Positions 15,001 through 20,832 of a DNA stretch of 20,832 nt are shown in pieces. This DNA comes from a virus. Taxonomy: Duplodnaviria; Heunggongvirae; Uroviricota; Caudoviricetes. The stretch lies in the IMG/VR virus record IMGVR_UViG_2529293138_000009, positions 1 to 20,832 of that record. One strand, 5' to 3'. Made by a program: the position numbers. The first letter of the stretch is position 1. Each line of letters starts with the position of its first letter.

Positions 15001-18000
15001 GCTGGAAAGAAACTCAGGTGAGTGATATGGATTTCGACACAATCATGAAAAAGGCTTACGAAGAATACTTCGAAGGCCTTGCCGAAGGCGATGAAGCTCT
15101 CAGCTTCAGCGAATTTAAACAGGCGCTTTCCAGTTCGGCAAAATCTAACGGCTGATAAGCGAAACAGCACCGCGAGGAATCAGTATGCAGAAACGAGAAC
15201 CCGTCATCATCGCGCCAGATTATACCGATGATGAACTTTATGAGTGGATGCGCCAGAAAATTAATGCAGCGCAGGATCTGAAATGGGCCAATGAAGCCAG
15301 GGCTAAGCAGGCTGAAAATCTGTCCGCTCTGGAGCAGGATATCACCAATCTGGAAAAAGCAGCGGCATTAAGCATTGCCAGAATGATTACATACCCACGT
15401 TAATAGCTAACCAACGAGGCTAATAATGGAATTTGAATATTTACCAAAAGAAATCCAGACAATTGCTGCAACGACTCTCGGTGATAGTCTGGTGAAAATT
15501 GACCCAGCATACACCAAAAAAGAAACCATCGATAATATGGTTCGTAATGTGCGCAATGCTTTTTCTGGGCTATATGGTTCTGATAATCAAAAGCAGGAAA
15601 GCGATGTTAATGAACGGGTAATTTCTGTTTGCGTGAATGGCCATGTTCTTTCATCAATCAAAACAGAAACAGCGACAGTCTTCGATTGCCTTTGCGTTGT
15701 ACAGAGCCTTGTTGATGCCCTGTTTCGTTCAGTGAATTTAGAAAATGATGCAAATCTGCGAAGGCGCACAATAGCACATCCATATGCACATTCTTTAGGC
15801 TCTGTGGATATCAAAGATCCCACAAATCTTTAATGAAATAGTTAACGCGAATTGTACTTGCTCTTTCAGTTGCTTTCAGAATACGCGTTGAAACCGCTGG
15901 CGGTAATTTGGTATTCCATTTATTAAAATCATGCCCGGGAAAGTACTCTTCGAAAATACTTTTAACTGCAGACTCGCCTATTGAAATGCTGCTTACCATG
16001 CGATTTTGATAAAGGCATTTAGCAATAAGAGTTGATTTTAACATTCACCCTCCTGAGGGTTGGTAATTAAGGAGTTCTCCACGGGTGAGGTGGAGTGCGT
16101 GCGCCGGACACGGGTGAACATCCGGCACTGACAGTTTACTGAAAGGATATTTCCCTGAAAAGTCAGACCATAACGCGAAAGCGCACGGCGAGGTAGCTGG
16201 TTCATAGATAGCCTGTCGTTAAATTTTCGTCGACCGTGCGCTTCCGGTTGTGGCACTCCGCGAAATGGCGCGGCGGTAAGTATGGCGGGGTTATTCCTTC
16301 CCCGTTGAGGACACCGGGTTGTCAGGTTGACCATGCGCTTAAGTGACAACCCCGCTGCAACGCCCTCTGTTATCAATTTTCTGGTGACGTTTGGCGGTAT
16401 CAGTTTTACTCCGTGACTGCTCTGCCGCCCTTTTTAAAGTGAATTTTGTGATGTGGTGAATGCGGCTGAGCGCACGCGGAACAGTTAAAACCAAAAACAG
16501 TGTTATGGGTGGATTCTCTGTATCCGGCGTTAATTGTTAACTGGTTAACGCCACCTGGAGGCACCAGGCACCGCATCACAAAATTCATTGTTGAGGACGC
16601 GATAATGGAAACGTTATTACCAAACGTTAATACGTCTGAAGGTTGTTTTGAAATTGGTGTCACTATCAGTAACCCTGTATTTACTGAAGATGCCATTAAC
16701 AAGAGAAAACACGAACGGGAGTTATTAAATAAAATATGCATTCTTTCAATGCTGGCCCGTTTACGTCCGATACAAAAAGGATGCTGGCAATGAATACAGC
16801 ATTTGCACTTGTTCTGACAGTTTTTCTTGTTTCCGGAGAGCCAGTTGATATTGCTGTCAGTGTTCACAGGACAATGCAGGAGTGTGTAACTGCAGCAACC
16901 GAACAGAAAATTCCCGGTAACTGTTACCCGGTCGATAAAGTTATTCACATGAATAATAACGAAGTCCCGGCAGGATTAAAAACAGCACCGTAATTAATAT
17001 CCGGTTTCATTTTTATATGCCAGCAATGGCAGGGATTTGTTCACCCTTAAATCTGTAATGAGGTTAATACAAAATGAGTAAAGTCTTTATTTGCGCCGCC
17101 ATTCCGGACGAACAGGCAATAAAGGAAGAAGGTGCAGTTGCTGTAGCCACTGCTATCGAAGCCGGTGACGAACGCCGCGCCCGTGCCAAATTTACCTGGC
17201 AATTCCTGGAACATTATCCGGCTGCTCAGGACTGCGCTTATAAATTTCTTGTCTGCGAGGATAAACCCGGCATGCCCCGCCCTGCCATCGACTCCTGGGA
17301 TACCGAATATATGCAGGAAAACCGCTGGGATGAGGAATCCGCTTCCTTTGTTCCGGTCGAACCAGAATCCGATCCGATGAACGTCAATTTTGACAAGCTG
17401 TCCCTTGAAGTACAGAACGCGGTCCTGGTTAAGTTCGGTACATGTGAAAACATCACCGTTGATATGGTGATTAGTGCACAGGAATTGTTGCAGGAGGACA
17501 TGACAACATTCGACGGGCATATCGTTGAGGCATTGATGAAAACGCCTGAAATTAACGCTATGTATCCGGAACGCAAACTGTTCGCTATCGGATGGGTTAA
17601 GCACAAATGCAAGCCGAGTGCCAAATGGCCCGAAATTCAGGCTGAATTACGTAACTGGAAAAAACGGCAGGACGCAGAGCGCAAAGAGACTGGAAAATAC
17701 ACGTCTGTTGTTGATCTTGCCCGCGCCAGAGTCAACCGACAGCACACTGAAAACTCAGCAGAAAAAATCACCCCTGTCACTAGTGCCATTCGTCGCGAAT
17801 ACAAGCAGACATGGAAAACGCTGGATGAAGAGCTGGCCTACGCTCTGTGGCCTGGTGACATTGATGCCGGAAACATTTACGGCAGCATCCATCGCTGGGC
17901 AAAAAATGAAGTTATCGACAACGACCGCGAAGACTGGAAGCGTATCTCGGCATCAATGCGCAAACAGCCTGATGCCCTTCGCTACGACCGCCAGACTATT

Positions 18001-20832
18001 TTTGGCCTTGTCCGTGAACGTCCAATCGACATTCACAAAGACCCTGTGGCACTGAACAAATACATTACTGAATACCTGACTACAAAGGGCGTGTTTGAAG
18101 ATGAAGGAAGAAATCAGAGCGCAACTGATACTCTCTCGTCGCCAGTACCAGAAACTGATGCAGTGGAAACGGCAATTCCGGACAACGAAAAAACCGAATA
18201 CAAAGTGGAAGTCGAACCATCTGTAGAGCGTGAGGGGCCGTTCTACTTCCTCTTCACCGACAAGGATGGCGAAAAATACGGTCGCGCAAACAAACTTTCT
18301 GGTCTGGATAAGGCGCTGGCTGCCGGGGCTACTGAAATCACGAAAGAAGAATATTTCGCCCGCAAAAACGGTACATACTCAGGCTCACAACAAAATACTG
18401 GTACATCTGACACGACCGCACAACCAGAGCCGGTAAAAGTTACCGCTGACGAAGTAAACAAAATTATGCAGGCAGCCAATATCAGCCAGCCTGACGCCGA
18501 TGAACTGCTTGCAGTATCACGTGGTGAATTTGTTGCAGGGATTAGCGATCCGAATGATCCGAAATGGGTGAAGGGGATTGAAACCCGCGATTCTGTGAAC
18601 CAGAACCAGCGAGAAATGGAACAGAACGACCAGAAAGCGGAACAAAACAGCCAAAATGCGTTACAAAAAGAGCCAGAAACGAAACAATCCGAACCAGTAG
18701 CGCAACAGGAACCGGAAAAAGTCTGCACCGCCTGCAGTCAGAGCGGTGGCGGCAACTGCCCTGATTGTGGCGCGGTGATGGGCGACGCAACATACCAGGA
18801 AACATTCGATGAAGAGAATCAGGTTGAAGTTCAGGAAAATGATCTGGAGGAAATGGAAGGCGCTGAACATCCACACAAGGAGAACCCTGGCGGCAATCAG
18901 CATCACGCCAGCGATAATAAAACTGGCGAGGCGACAGATCCCTTAATTAAGGTGAATGGTCATCATAAGCTCACATCCACCAGCAGAGCGGGGATTCATC
19001 TGATGATCGACCTTGAAACCATGGGAAAAAATCCCGATGCCCCGATTATCTCAATAGGCGCAATATTTTTCGATCCGCAAACCGGAGATATGGGACCGGA
19101 ATTTAGTAAGACTATCGATCTGGAAACTGCCGGCGGAGTCATTGATCGTGACACCATTAAATGGTGGCTTAAGCAATCACGCGAGGCGCAATCTGCCATT
19201 ATGACCGATGAAATCCCGTTAGATGATGCACTACTGCAATTGCGGGAATTTATCGCCGAAAACTCCGGTGAGTTTTTTGTTCAGGTCTGGGGAAATGGAG
19301 CCAACTTCGACAACACGATTTTGCGCCGTTCATACGAACGGCAGGGGATCCCCTGCCCGTGGCGCTACTGCAACGATCGCGATGTACGCACAATCGTTGA
19401 GCTGGGGAAAGCCATAGACTTCGATGCCAGAACTGCTATCCCATTCGAAGGTGAGCGCCATAATGCACTTGATGACGCTCGTTACCAGGCAAAATACGTT
19501 TCAGCTATCTGGCAAAAACTGATCCCGAGTCAGGCTGATTTTTAATGTTCAACCCTAATTGCCGCTAACCGTATATAGTTAGCGGCGGTTATGAGATATA
19601 GCTATGAGCAGCTTATTTTTAACCGAAGATGAATTGCTAATATTAACGGGCTGCAAATATGCAAGCCACCAGCGAAAATGGTTAATGGAAAACGGGCTTC
19701 CGTTCTATACCAATCGTAGTGGCAAACCGATTGTCAGCCGGGATCTATTTACCTGCAATAAAACTTTACCACCACGCGAGGTAGAGCCGAATTTTGGTGC
19801 GATCTGATGGGAAGACGAAGGAAAAATCCTGAACACGAAAAATTACCTCCAAATGTATACCAAAATAAATATAGTTATGTATGGAAACCAACATCCAGAG
19901 AATCTGTAACACTAACCGCCATCAAGGATGGTTTAGCTGCTTTATGGAAAAAGTATGAGGAAACTGTAAATAATCGCGATCGTGCAATGACATTCGGTCG
20001 CTTGTGGGAAAAATTCCTCGCCAGCGCCTATTACAGTGACCTTAGTCCAAGAACACAAAAAGATTATCTGCAACATCAAAAAAAGTTGCTTGCCGTATTC
20101 GGTAAGGTACCAGCGGATTCCATAAAACCAGAACACATCCGTCGATACATGGACAAAAGAGGGGAGCAGAGTAAAACGCAAGCCAACCATGAAAAAAGCA
20201 GTATGTCCCGTGTTTACAGTTGGGGGTATGAGCGAGGGTACGTGAAGGCTAACCCATGTGCAGGTGTAAGTAAATTCAAGGCCAAAAACCGCGAACGATA
20301 TGTAACCGACAAAGAATACCAGGCAGTATTAAGCGTTGCACCTCTTCCTGTTTTTATCGCAATGGAAATTGCCTATCTGTGTGCAGCGAGGGTTTCCGAT
20401 GTGTTATCGCTGAAATGGGAGCAGATTGGAAACGACGGGATCTTTATCCAGCAAGGGAAAACAGGGAAAAAACAGATAAAAGCATGGAGTCCACGATTAC
20501 AGGCGGCGATCGAAAAAGCAAAACAGTTACCAACATCCGCCTATGTAATCAGCAATCAATACGGCAACCGATATATGTACAAAGGCTTTAACGAAATGTG
20601 GGTAGAAGCAAGAAATCGCGCAGGCAAAATTTCAGGTATTTTAACCGACTTCACCTTTCATGATCTGAAGGCAAAAGGAATTTCAGACTATGAAGGAAGC
20701 AGCCGGGATAAGCAACTTTTCTCTGGTCACAAAACCGAAGGGCAAGTGCTAATCTATGACAGGAAGGTTAAAGTTTCACCAACACTTGATGTCCCGTTAC
20801 CTGAAAATATTCCAAGAAAATATTCCAAGTAA

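What the first reader, a model, noticed from the sequence alone, without database searches (positions are those of the whole stretch)
17074..19545. 823-aa multidomain protein ending in a DEDDh 3'-5' exonuclease domain, in the position of the recombination genes
All three exonuclease motifs are present in the last roughly 200 aa, preceded by a Cys4 zinc ribbon and a long acidic low-complexity linker. No lambda exo/bet or RecE/RecT-type genes are seen in this arm, so this protein may be the element's recombination or DNA-end processing function, or a nuclease aimed at competing DNA.
Basis: partly seen in the sequence, partly recalled or inferred. Interest (0 to 1): 0.45.

Follow-up and report, generated by a model that had tools for sequence, protein, structure and literature searches.

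The report
RecE-like prophage protein with 3'-5' exonuclease
The gene is the intact form of the common but never-tested E. coli prophage gene ydfE, which joins the non-catalytic body of the recombination nuclease RecE to a T4 DexA-type 3'-to-5' exonuclease; it is a catalogued family and matters mainly as a clue to what the unexplained part of RecE does.

Summary
Window 17074-19545(+) encodes an 823-aa protein with a complete DEDDh domain (Pfam PF16473, E 3e-67; D646, E648, D746, H796, D801). A CxxC-x7-CxxC motif and a disordered acidic linker precede the domain.

It is not a new gene. About 65% of complete E. coli genomes carry it. It is the full-length form of the K-12 Qin pseudogene ydfE, and phages mEp460 and Tritos have orthologs.

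Residues 262-625 match the non-catalytic region of Rac RecE, and the match stops where RecE's PD-(D/E)XK nuclease would begin. Relatives put other C-terminal domains on the same scaffold: RecE-type nuclease (followed by RecT), a Rad52-type annealing domain (followed by a Gam-like gene), or no recognisable catalytic domain. The nearest solved structure is T4 DexA, a DNA 3'-5' exonuclease.

The element is a Stx1d lambdoid prophage with no annealing protein and no anti-RecBCD gene. It is Chi-rich (8 sites against 0.6 expected).

Best reading: a 3'-5' DNA-end exonuclease of the early-left operon, possibly feeding the host RecBCD-Chi pathway. That role is inferred. Defence, anti-defence and RNA roles are not excluded. 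Interest is moderate.

The parts
17074..19545 (+). Whole gene: 823-aa full-length YdfE-type protein (YdfE_N + YdfE_C/RecE-like middle + DEDDh exonuclease)
   Evidence: ORF and translation. PHROG 2082 matches end to end. Homologs at 93-94% identity carry precomputed Pfam PF27430, PF27432 and PF16473.
17074..17688 (+). Domain A (aa 1-205), YdfE_N-type alpha/beta domain
   Evidence: 86% identical over aa 1-256 to the K-12 Qin pseudogene ydfE. AlphaFold2 pLDDT mostly above 90. dN/dS 0.11-0.13. No PDB or BFVD fold match at E <= 0.001.
17806..18093 (+). Domain B (aa 245-340), helical module shared with RecE 278-351
   Evidence: BLASTP to Rac RecE; 26% identity. pLDDT about 90. Present in DEDDh-, PD-(D/E)XK- and Rad52-carrying relatives.
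18238..18369 (+). Domain C (aa 389-432), small beta-beta-alpha module (REGPFYF...GRANK...EI..EEY.ARK)
   Evidence: pLDDT about 90. Conserved in the alignment consensus. Present in relatives with different C-terminal domains.
18498..18947 (+). Segment with DNA-level similarity to Rac recE (gene nt 1425-1874; aa 475-625)
   Evidence: blastn 84-85% nucleotide identity; 97 of 138 aligned residues identical to RecE 454-591. Similarity stops at aa 625, just before the DEDDh domain. An E. coli PD-(D/E)XK (RecE) gene matches only gene nt 1681-1874 (hit H112).
18520..18567 (+). Motif D, RGEFVAGISDPNDPKW (aa 483-498), candidate partner-binding peptide
   Evidence: Conserved in RecE and in relatives with every kind of C-terminal domain. 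That it binds a partner is inference.
18724..18771 (+). Cys4 motif CTACSQSGGGNCPDCG (C551, C554, C562, C565), zinc-ribbon-like
   Evidence: Sequence. Conserved in Rac RecE and in P0124, P0125, P0155, P0182 and P0195. pLDDT 64-75.
18772..18993 (+). Acidic, disordered linker (aa 567-640)
   Evidence: 13 acidic and 0 basic residues in aa 561-600. pLDDT below 50. dN/dS 0.25-0.66.
18997..19512 (+). DEDDh 3'-5' exonuclease domain (aa 642-813). Catalytic codons: D646 19009-19011, E648 19015-19017, D746 19309-19311, H796 19459-19461, D801 19474-19476
   Evidence: Pfam PF16473 E 3.4e-67. Catalytic residues conserved. Family profile hits T4 DexA 8KEL at E 7e-19. Foldseek top hit DexA at E 5e-12. dN/dS 0.08-0.15.
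16379..16430 (+). DicF sRNA, upstream member of the same early-left (dicBF-type) operon
   Evidence: Rfam RF00039, 76.7 bits. Same gene order as Qin, Tritos and mEp460.
16605..16993 (+). dicB-like and ydfD-like (DUF1482) genes immediately upstream
   Evidence: PHROG 1251 and 1092. Annotated as DicB and DUF1482 in the closest E. coli locus.
17018..17041 (+). Weak terminator-like hairpin between ydfD and the exonuclease gene
   Evidence: Consensus scan only; the number of such sites is not above the shuffled expectation. In K-12 no transcript reaching ydfE was detected (PMC10448788).
19604..20832 (+). Excisionase-like gene (19604-19807) and tyrosine integrase (19807-20832) immediately downstream
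   Evidence: PHROG excisionase and integrase hits. Annotated as DUF4224 and integrase in the closest locus.
13652..14086 (+). DicA/CI-like repressor at the head of the early-left arm
   Evidence: PHROG 5736, transcriptional regulator. Position as in Qin dicA and Tritos CI.

Best explanation
The gene is the intact form of ydfE. It encodes a modular protein of the RecE (exonuclease VIII) scaffold family. In it the C-terminal 5'-to-3' PD-(D/E)XK nuclease of RecE is replaced by a T4 DexA / DnaQ-type DEDDh domain.

Shown here:
- The domain architecture.
- Intact two-metal catalytic residues.
- Purifying selection on the folded domains.
- A position at the end of the repressor-controlled early-left operon (ydfABC-dicF-dicB-ydfD-gene-xis-int).
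- No annealing-protein or anti-RecBCD gene in the element.

Inferred:
- The protein is made during lytic development.
- It dimerises through the DEDDh domain, as DexA, RNase T and oligoribonuclease do.
- It removes nucleotides from free 3' DNA ends.
- The roughly 640-aa scaffold (three small folded domains, conserved short motifs, a Cys4 motif and an acidic linker) tethers the nuclease to the same unknown partner or DNA structure that RecE's N-terminal region recognises.

Most likely role: processing of phage DNA ends. This phage is Chi-rich and lacks both Gam and an annealing protein, so trimming 3' tails would give blunt ends that host RecBCD can load on. Host ExoI and ExoX are thought to do this (my knowledge, not tested here). 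If so, ends would be channelled into RecBCD-Chi-RecA rather than into an annealing pathway.
For: - Architecture and RecE relationship.
- Catalytic residues, fold and nearest structure (T4 DexA, a DNA exonuclease).
- The same scaffold carries recombination enzymes in relatives. A PD-(D/E)XK C-terminal domain is followed by a RecT-family gene. A Rad52-type annealing domain is followed by a Gp157/Mu-Gam-like gene. The module combinations are tabulated.
- Stand-alone homologs of the DEDDh domain lie inside recombination or replication modules: Erf-SSB-DEDDh-Abc2 in phiKp_30 and Cas4 exonuclease-Gp2.5-DEDDh-polymerase in RcDora.
- Gene order is conserved in Tritos, mEp460 and two metagenomic or unassembled-read relatives, always directly before xis-int and without an annealing-protein gene.
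- Chi: 8 sites against 0.63 expected, 6 of them on the strand corresponding to lambda's top strand.
- No Gam, Abc2 or annealing-protein gene in the window.
- PMC12315714 lists DnaQ-like nucleases in lambdoid Rec modules. It also lists a Chi-rich 'Tritos' class with a nuclease only. The only nuclease gene in the Tritos early-left arm is the ortholog of this gene.
- Selection and prevalence.
Against: - No biochemical or genetic data exist for this protein or any close relative. YdfE is described as uncharacterised (PMC10448788).
- 3'-5' exonucleases usually inhibit homologous recombination, as PMC12315714 itself notes. That paper declines to count DnaQ-type genes next to int as Rec-module members unless they are contiguous with other Rec genes.
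- The Pfam family is named after an exoribonuclease, so an RNA substrate is not excluded.
- The N-terminal scaffold has no detectable structural relative, and its partner is unknown.
- The RecBCD-feeding step is pure inference.
Confidence: 0.5

Rival explanations
1. Defence or exclusion nuclease. The DEDDh domain degrades the DNA of competing phages, for example DNA with modified bases. This would resemble the E. coli DexA homolog EcD ('HREX'), reported to destroy 5hmC-containing T4 DNA.
For: - DexA is the nearest solved structure.
- PMC12153337 reports that a plasmid-borne E. coli DexA homolog protects against T4.
- Prophages often carry exclusion genes. This one also carries an Old nuclease, and DicB in the same operon is known to block some phages (title of PMC6832061, listed).
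Against: - The DexA residues proposed to recognise 5hmC (W152, D169) align to C766 and an Ala/Lys position in this protein. The Asp that EcD has lost (DexA D90) is retained as D718.
- The gene lies in the repressed early-left operon with no promoter-like site of its own (PMC10448788). It would therefore not be expressed in a quiescent lysogen.
- This reading does not explain the RecE-type scaffold, or why the same scaffold carries a RecE nuclease or a Rad52 annealing domain.
Confidence: 0.15
2. Anti-defence nuclease. During lytic growth it removes host immune nucleic acids that have free 3' ends, such as retron msDNA or reverse-transcriptase cDNA products, or linear oligonucleotide signals.
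For: - It is expressed with the early lytic genes (gene order).
- DEDDh relatives include oligoribonucleases and the CBASS-associated Cap18 exonuclease among the structural matches.
- From my own knowledge, not tested here: RecE has been reported to act on retron msDNA.
Against: - There is no direct evidence of any kind.
- PADLOC gives only a weak, generic DEDDh match.
- Nothing in the context links the gene to a particular defence system.
Confidence: 0.1
3. 3'-5' exoribonuclease acting on RNA. It would trim or degrade host or phage transcripts, for instance in the heavily processed dicBF transcript, as the NCBI name '3'-5' exoribonuclease' implies.
For: - Pfam PF16473 is named after M. tuberculosis Rv2179c, an exoribonuclease.
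- RNase T and oligoribonuclease are strong structural matches.
- The gene shares an operon with the processed sRNA DicF.
Against: - By sequence profile the nearest solved relative is DexA, a DNA exonuclease, at E 7e-19. Every other solved structure scores E 0.003 or worse.
- Stand-alone homologs sit among DNA-metabolism genes.
- The scaffold is shared with DNA recombination enzymes.
- DicF processing is attributed to RNase III and RNase E (title of reference 17 in PMC10448788).
Confidence: 0.1
4. Decaying remnant. The gene would be a recombination-generated chimera with no selected function, carried along in defective prophages.
For: - The K-12 copy (ydfE) is a pseudogene truncated by IS2.
- Many truncated fragments exist in databases.
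- The gene is visibly mosaic: dS is 0.49 in domain A against about 0.1 elsewhere.
Against: - The best 120 homologs are all 819-824 aa.
- 3511 of 5426 complete E. coli genomes have a copy covering at least 80% of the gene.
- dN/dS is 0.08-0.17 in the folded domains against 0.4-0.66 in linkers.
- The catalytic residues are intact.
- Orthologs are present in the genome records of phages mEp460, Tritos, HannyBb and Evi.
Confidence: 0.03

Closest known systems
Rac prophage RecE (exonuclease VIII)
   Same: - Same position in the early-left operon, before xis-int.
- Homologous non-catalytic region: aa 262-625 against RecE 278-591. This includes motif D, the Cys4 motif and the acidic linker, at 70% amino-acid and 84-85% nucleotide identity in the last 150 residues.
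- Sister proteins with the DEDDh domain also carry RecE's N-terminal Pfam domain PF06630.
   Different: - There is no PD-(D/E)XK nuclease domain. A DEDDh domain of opposite polarity takes its place.
- The N-terminal domain is YdfE_N, not PF06630.
- No RecT gene follows.
- The NCBIfam RecE equivalog scores 271 bits against a cut-off of 1269.
Bacteriophage T4 DexA (exonuclease A; PDB 8KEL/8KEN)
   Same: - Nearest solved structure by profile (E 7e-19) and by fold (Foldseek E 5e-12, TM about 0.65-0.73 normalised to DexA).
- All five catalytic residues align.
- DexA is a DNA 3'-5' exonuclease (PMC12153337).
   Different: - Only about 27% identity.
- DexA is a stand-alone 227-aa protein with extra loops.
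- The DexA residues W152 and D169 implicated in 5hmC recognition are not matched (C766; Ala/Lys).
- This protein has a 640-aa scaffold in front of the domain.
E. coli K-12 Qin prophage ydfE (pseudogene b1577); Pfam YdfE_N and YdfE_C
   Same: - aa 1-256 are 86% identical to YdfE.
- Same operon order: ydfABC-dicF-dicB-ydfD-ydfE-int.
- Close homologs carry PF27430 and PF27432.
   Different: The K-12 copy is cut off by IS2 after about 256 residues and lacks everything downstream, including the nuclease. The window holds the intact gene.
EcD / 'HREX' E. coli DexA homolog (PMC12153337)
   Same: It belongs to the DexA-like DEDDh group, is found in E. coli, and keeps its catalytic residues.
   Different: - EcD is described as a short DexA-like protein that lacks the tetramerisation Asp and keeps the 5hmC-recognition Trp and Asp.
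- This protein keeps that Asp (D718), lacks the matching Trp and Asp, and is an 823-aa fusion.
- The EcD sequence (HAK9828821.1) could not be retrieved here, so the exact relationship is unknown.
'RecE-2' proteins and the Tritos-type Rec module of lambdoid phages (PMC12315714)
   Same: - The Tritos early-left arm holds an 89%-identical ortholog as its only nuclease gene.
- That paper records DnaQ-like nucleases in lambdoid early-left operons, and Chi-richness in phages without anti-RecBCD genes.
- This window fits that pattern: 8 Chi sites.
   Different: - The paper does not describe the RecE-scaffold/DEDDh chimera.
- It treats 'RecE-2' proteins as lacking a nuclease and of unknown role.
- Here one scaffold-bearing group (ZF40 gp07, P0135 and similar proteins) is shown to end in a Rad52-family annealing domain. 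Whether these are the paper's 'RecE-2' proteins was not checked.
M. tuberculosis Rv2179c (founder of Pfam PF16473) and host DnaQ-family exonucleases (RNase T, oligoribonuclease, ExoX)
   Same: DEDDh fold and motifs. Strong Pfam membership and structural similarity.
   Different: These are stand-alone cellular enzymes, mostly acting on RNA. None carries a RecE-like scaffold or sits in a phage early operon.

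Membership tests
DEDDh (DnaQ-like) 3'-5' exonucleases, Pfam PF16473 Rv2179c-like / DexA-like | Exo I motif D-x-E | tested here: met
   D646 and E648. Invariant in alignment A1, which includes DexA. D invariant and E at least 90% conserved in A4.
DEDDh (DnaQ-like) 3'-5' exonucleases, Pfam PF16473 Rv2179c-like / DexA-like | Exo II Asp and Exo III H-x4-D | tested here: met
   D746, H796 and D801.
DEDDh (DnaQ-like) 3'-5' exonucleases, Pfam PF16473 Rv2179c-like / DexA-like | Score above the curated family threshold, and the DnaQ fold | tested here: met
   226 bits against a gathering score of 27. AlphaFold2 domain pLDDT above 90. Foldseek matches DexA, RNase T and oligoribonucleases at probability 1.0.
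DEDDh (DnaQ-like) 3'-5' exonucleases, Pfam PF16473 Rv2179c-like / DexA-like | Metal-dependent 3'-5' exonuclease activity, and substrate (DNA or RNA) | not testable with these tools
   Needs a nuclease assay.
RecE / exonuclease VIII (NCBIfam NF007259 equivalog) | C-terminal PD-(D/E)XK 5'-3' nuclease domain (RecE about 606-866) | tested here: not met
   No alignment to RecE beyond residue 591. No PF12684 hit.
RecE / exonuclease VIII (NCBIfam NF007259 equivalog) | Whole-protein score above the equivalog cut-off | tested here: not met
   271 bits against 1269. Only aa 243-625 match profile positions 268-602.
RecE / exonuclease VIII (NCBIfam NF007259 equivalog) | Homology of the non-catalytic region (RecE about 278-591, with Cys4 motif and acidic linker) | tested here: met
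   BLASTP E 9e-60. 70% identity over aa 474-625.
RecE / exonuclease VIII (NCBIfam NF007259 equivalog) | Adjacent RecT-family annealing-protein gene | tested here: not met
   The next genes are xis-like and int. By contrast the PD-(D/E)XK-carrying relative P0139 is followed by a RecT-family gene.
YdfE family (Pfam YdfE_N PF27430, YdfE_C PF27432) | Presence of both Pfam domains / orthology to K-12 YdfE | tested here: met
   86% identity to YdfE over aa 1-256. Homologs at 93-94% identity carry PF27430 and PF27432. These two models are absent from the local Pfam copy, so the window protein itself was not scored against them.
HREX / EcD-type modification-dependent defence exonuclease (PMC12153337) | Counterparts of DexA W152 and D169 (5hmC recognition) | tested here: not met
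   They align to C766 and an Ala/Lys position. The family consensus has Trp where this allele has Cys. The alignment around D169 is gapped, so this result is less certain than the Trp result.
HREX / EcD-type modification-dependent defence exonuclease (PMC12153337) | Loss of the tetramerisation Asp (DexA D90 replaced by Ala in EcD) | tested here: not met
   D718 aligns with DexA D90.
HREX / EcD-type modification-dependent defence exonuclease (PMC12153337) | Protection against T4 and selective cleavage of 5hmC DNA | not testable with these tools
   Needs plaque and nuclease assays.
Lambdoid Rec module as defined in PMC12315714 | Early-left-operon gene contiguous with an annealing-protein, SSB or anti-RecBCD gene | tested here: not met
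   The gene is in the early-left operon, but its neighbours are ydfD and xis. The paper counts Tritos as a nuclease-only module and calls modules of one or two genes 'somewhat suspect'.

The most novel reading that the evidence does not exclude
The YdfE/RecE N-terminal region, whose function in RecE is unknown, may be a general adaptor. It would dock interchangeable DNA-end enzymes onto one common, still unidentified partner or DNA structure. The known alternatives are a 5'-3' PD-(D/E)XK nuclease, a 3'-5' DEDDh nuclease and a Rad52-type annealing domain. On this reading the DEDDh version is a polarity-switched RecE. It would let lambdoid phages that lack Gam and an annealing protein and are rich in Chi hand their DNA ends to host RecBCD-Chi-RecA instead of to a phage annealing pathway.
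Probability: 0.25. Interest if true: 0.65.

Novelty: new variant of a known kind. Interest (0 to 1): 0.42.

Why it matters
The gene itself is ordinary in one sense. It is in most E. coli genomes and already has PHROG, Pfam and NCBI names.

It still matters for three reasons:
- It is one of the commonest prophage genes in E. coli, including Shiga-toxin phages, and has never been tested.
- It shows that the roughly 600-residue non-catalytic part of RecE belongs to a shuffled scaffold that carries nucleases of either polarity or an annealing domain. The function of that region is unknown, although it improves linear-linear recombineering (PMC11611040). The different versions give a set of natural experiments for finding what the scaffold binds.
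- A 3'-5' exonuclease as the only recombination-type gene of Chi-rich, Gam-less phages bears on how such phages use host RecBCD (PMC12315714).

There is also a practical point. Annotations that call this protein 'exodeoxyribonuclease VIII' are wrong about its catalytic domain and its polarity.

Tried and rejected
- Fold of the N-terminal 460 aa. The AlphaFold2 model was confident (three domains at pLDDT about 90), but Foldseek found nothing at E <= 0.001 in PDB or BFVD. Only short uncharacterised phage proteins matched a piece of about 65 residues. No function could be read from the fold.
- Sequence search of PDB with the full protein found only DexA. The Rv2179c structure was not recovered, even with a family profile.
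- PADLOC gave only a weak generic DEDDh hit, so the protein was not filed as a known defence component.
- The first homolog search was saturated by near-identical E. coli copies. Diversity came from the representative search instead.
- One literature search was wasted because 'RecE' matched 'receptor'. Searches for Rv2179c with phage and for ydfE found no functional study.
Its identity was established through homologs named Rad52/Rad22 or carrying PF04098, and through a marginal RAD52 profile hit.
- The EcD sequence could not be obtained, so its relationship to this protein is unresolved.
- The supplementary tables of PMC12315714 are not held. How that paper typed the Tritos nuclease (RecE or DnaQ) is therefore unknown.
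- My first estimate of about 85% amino-acid identity to RecE in aa 470-625 was corrected to 70%.
- The pseudogene or relic reading was rejected on the conservation data.

Full report
**Observation**

Window 17074-19545(+) is an uninterrupted 823-codon ORF with an ATG start and a GAGG 10 nt upstream. Pfam places a PF16473 (Rv2179c-like) DEDDh domain at aa 642-813, with E 3.4e-67 and 226 bits against a threshold of 27. The catalytic residues are D646 and E648 (Exo I), D746 (Exo II), and H796 and D801 (Exo III). They are invariant in an alignment that includes T4 DexA. In 36 diverse homologs they are invariant or at least 90% conserved.

AlphaFold2 models the DEDDh domain at pLDDT above 90, the Cys4 motif at 64-75, and the linker as disordered.

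**The element**

The window is the early and lysis region of a lambdoid Shiga-toxin prophage of Escherichia. Reading leftward on the minus strand it holds:
- lysis genes;
- stxB and stxA (StxA is 100% identical to Stx1d A);
- a CPBP protease, Q, RusA and a DUF968 protein;
- replication genes and a YdaT-like gene.

On the plus strand it holds a DicA/CI-like repressor, ydfA- and ydfC-like genes, DicF sRNA, dicB, ydfD, the 823-aa gene, an excisionase-like gene and an integrase. This is the dicBF-type early-left operon of the Qin prophage. In K-12 that operon is repressed by DicA and is said to include ydfE (PMC10448788).

No annealing protein (RecT, Bet, Erf or Rad52 type), no lambda Exo and no Gam or Abc2 is encoded in the window. 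Chi (GCTGGTGG) occurs 8 times against 0.63 expected, and 6 of the 8 lie on the strand that corresponds to lambda's top strand.

**What the protein is**

It is a very common gene. 3511 of 5426 complete E. coli genomes hold a copy covering at least 80% of it, with up to 10 places per genome. Orthologs at 88-94% nucleotide identity are in phages mEp460, Tritos, HannyBb, Evi, PhiR42_1 and the PPompW phages. PHROG 2082 matches it end to end.

Residues 1-256 are 86% identical to the K-12 Qin pseudogene ydfE, which is truncated by IS2. The window therefore holds the intact form of ydfE. Close homologs carry the recent Pfam families PF27430 (YdfE_N) and PF27432 (YdfE_C) as well as PF16473.

**Relationship to RecE**

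Residues 262-625 align to Rac RecE 278-591 (E 9e-60). The NCBIfam RecE equivalog hits aa 243-625 at E 2e-80, but far below its whole-protein cut-off. The last part of this region is close to RecE. Residues 474-625 share 97 of 138 aligned positions with RecE 454-591, and nucleotide identity is 84-85% over gene nt 1425-1874. This part includes motif D, the Cys4 motif and the acidic linker. The similarity ends at aa 625, exactly where the DEDDh domain takes over.

The RecE PD-(D/E)XK nuclease domain is not matched at all. In RecE, the region N-terminal of the nuclease domain is of unknown function (PMC11611040). The protein has the body of RecE with a different catalytic domain.

**A shuffled family**

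A search of 1.8 billion representative proteins gave 11,712 hits with mosaic coverage. Domain calls on the long relatives show several combinations:
- two alternative N-terminal domains, YdfE_N or the RecE N-terminal Pfam domain PF06630;
- shared middle modules: domain B, domain C, motif D (RGEFVxGISDPxDPKW), a GxGxFSIxxL motif and the Cys4 motif;
- alternative C-terminal domains: DEDDh, PD-(D/E)XK (PF12684), a third domain, or no recognisable catalytic domain.

The third domain is a Rad52-family annealing domain. Its profile's best nine PDB hits are all human RAD52 (E about 0.1), with the KKxxTDxxKxAL signature aligned. Its homologs at E 1e-75 to 1e-86 include proteins named Rad52/Rad22 or carrying PF04098.

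Neighbouring genes track the C-terminal domain:
- The PD-(D/E)XK version is followed by a RecT-family gene.
- The Rad52 version, including Pectobacterium phage ZF40 gp07, is followed by a Gp157/Mu-Gam-like gene.
- The DEDDh versions and the version without a catalytic domain sit directly before xis-int with no annealing-protein gene.

Stand-alone homologs of the DEDDh domain occur in about 1250 phage records. Examples lie inside recombination or replication modules:
- Erf-SSB-DEDDh-Abc2 in Klebsiella phage phiKp_30;
- Cas4 exonuclease-Gp2.5-DEDDh-polymerase in RcDora.

**The catalytic domain**

The family profile hits T4 DexA (PDB 8KEL) at E 7e-19, and every other solved structure scores E 0.003 or worse. 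Foldseek ranks DexA first (E 5e-12), then RNase T, REXO2/oligoribonuclease and Cap18. DexA is a 3'-5' DNA exonuclease (PMC12153337). This supports DNA as the substrate but does not prove it.

**Selection**

Against two orthologs, dN/dS by region is:
- domain A: 0.11-0.13;
- domain B: 0.14-0.17;
- DEDDh domain: 0.08-0.15;
- most linker segments: 0.4-0.66.

dS jumps from 0.49 in domain A to about 0.1 elsewhere, which indicates recombination within the gene. The best 120 homologs are all 819-824 aa. The gene is functional, not a relic.

**Literature**

PMC12315714 (Genome Research 2025) reports DnaQ-like 3'-5' nucleases in lambdoid Rec modules. It remarks that such enzymes usually inhibit recombination. 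It defines a Chi-rich 'Tritos' class with a nuclease but no annealing protein, SSB or anti-RecBCD gene. It also mentions 'RecE-2' proteins without a nuclease domain and of unknown role. The only nuclease gene in the Tritos early-left arm is the ortholog of this gene.

PMC12153337 (NAR 2025) solved DexA and reports that an E. coli homolog, EcD, protects against T4 by degrading 5hmC DNA. In the window protein the DexA positions W152 and D169 align to C766 and an Ala/Lys position, and DexA D90 is retained as D718. The features that paper uses to define EcD are therefore not met here.

No paper in the library characterises YdfE.

**How it most likely works**

Shown:
- the architecture;
- an intact two-metal active site;
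- purifying selection;
- operon position;
- absence of annealing-protein and anti-RecBCD genes;
- Chi enrichment.

Inferred:
- Expression comes from the repressor-controlled early-left promoter during lytic growth. No promoter-like site lies directly upstream on the plus strand, and a weak terminator-like hairpin lies between ydfD and the gene.
- The protein dimerises through the DEDDh domain, as its structural relatives do.
- It removes 3' nucleotides from DNA ends.
- The RecE-type scaffold tethers it to whatever RecE's N-terminal region binds.

The scaffold elsewhere carries a RecE nuclease or a Rad52 annealing domain, so I place its function in phage DNA-end metabolism.

The specific proposal is that it trims 3' tails so that host RecBCD can load and run to Chi. 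This rests on my general knowledge of host 3' exonucleases and RecBCD, and on the Gam-less, Chi-rich nature of the element. It is untested.

I put about 0.95 on the architecture, about 0.8 on 3'-5' exonuclease activity, about 0.5 on a DNA-end or recombination role, and about 0.2 on the RecBCD-feeding step.

**Rivals**

- A defence nuclease of the EcD type (0.15).
- An anti-defence nuclease acting on immune nucleic acids with free 3' ends (0.1).
- An exoribonuclease (0.1).
- A decaying chimera (0.03).

The scaffold's links to recombination enzymes and the repressed operon position count against the first. The absence of any evidence counts against the second. The DexA affinity and the DNA-metabolism neighbours count against the third. 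The conservation data count against the fourth.

**Novelty and interest**

The family is already catalogued, and its presence in lambdoid phages has been noted, so the gene is not a discovery.

Two points appear not to be in the papers I could read:
- the explicit RecE-scaffold/DEDDh chimera, with its breakpoint at aa 625;
- the finding that the same scaffold carries a PD-(D/E)XK nuclease, a DEDDh nuclease or a Rad52 annealing domain, each with matching neighbours.

I rate it a new variant of a known kind with moderate interest (0.42). It gives a concrete way to study the unexplained N-terminal region of RecE and the recombination strategy of Chi-rich phages.

Noticed in passing
window 1942-3177 (-): Shiga toxin operon. 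stxA (2221-3177; the true start is 3 codons inside the listed ORF) is 100% identical to the Stx1d A subunit of E. coli 2014C-3075, and stxB lies at 1942-2211. The element is therefore a Stx1d-converting prophage.
   Followed up: partly
window 9304-11115 (+): A solitary 603-aa OLD-family nuclease (AAA_15 plus OLD TOPRIM; PADLOC 'Old' E 9e-73) sits on the opposite strand among the replication genes. By classical P2 Old/Spi genetics (my knowledge), lambda carrying red and gam cannot grow in the presence of Old, while red- gam- Chi+ phage can. A prophage with Old, no Red or Gam, and many Chi sites would therefore be compatible with its own Old.
   Followed up: partly
window 570, 6028, 6080, 6613, 6670, 13051, 18977, 19666: Eight Chi sites (GCTGGTGG) against 0.63 expected; none of 100 shuffles reached 8. 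Six are on the minus strand, and one lies inside the exonuclease gene. This fits the Chi-rich, anti-RecBCD-less lambdoid class of PMC12315714.
   Followed up: partly
L009:3714-5879 (Pectobacterium phage ZF40 gp07); also P0135, P0143, P0148, P0169, P0213: Proteins annotated 'putative exonuclease' carry the YdfE/RecE scaffold but end in a Rad52/Rad22-family annealing domain, not a nuclease. They are followed by a Gp157/Mu-Gam-like gene. PMC12315714 lists ZF40 as having no annealing protein and calls 'RecE-2' proteins functionless unknowns, so this may correct that table.
   Followed up: yes
P0130 (aa about 650-700), P0155, P0182, P0195: Scaffold proteins with no recognisable catalytic domain end in a short conserved domain (LT.xQ..TIAA..GLCANPA...) of unknown function. 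They lie directly before xis-int.
   Followed up: no
window 8514-8838 (-): A hok/sok-type toxin-antitoxin locus: sok antisense RNA (Rfam RF01794, 116.9 bits) overlaps a 70-codon mok/hok-like ORF.
   Followed up: no
window 16379-16430 (+) and 1669-1861 (-): DicF sRNA lies upstream in the same operon as the exonuclease gene, and an STnc100 sRNA match lies next to stxB.
   Followed up: no
window 19369-19371 (codon C766): This allele has Cys where the DEDDh family consensus, and T4 DexA (W152, implicated in 5hmC recognition), have Trp. Sister proteins have Tyr.
   Followed up: partly
window 19807-20832 (+): The integrase gives an unexpected E 5e-14 match to positions 540-816 of PHROG 2082, the exonuclease family. 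The most likely cause is an integrase-containing or mis-joined sequence in that PHROG's alignment.
   Followed up: no
window 7431-8269 (-): An IrrE/M78 peptidase-like gene (7431-7907) is paired with a small HTH-like gene (7910-8269), a possible ImmA/IrrE-type regulatory pair inside the nin-like region.
   Followed up: no
window 17074-19545, compared with L001 and L002: Synonymous divergence is about 0.5 in the first 205 codons and about 0.03-0.27 in the rest of the gene. Recombination breakpoints therefore lie inside the gene, consistent with module shuffling.
   Followed up: partly
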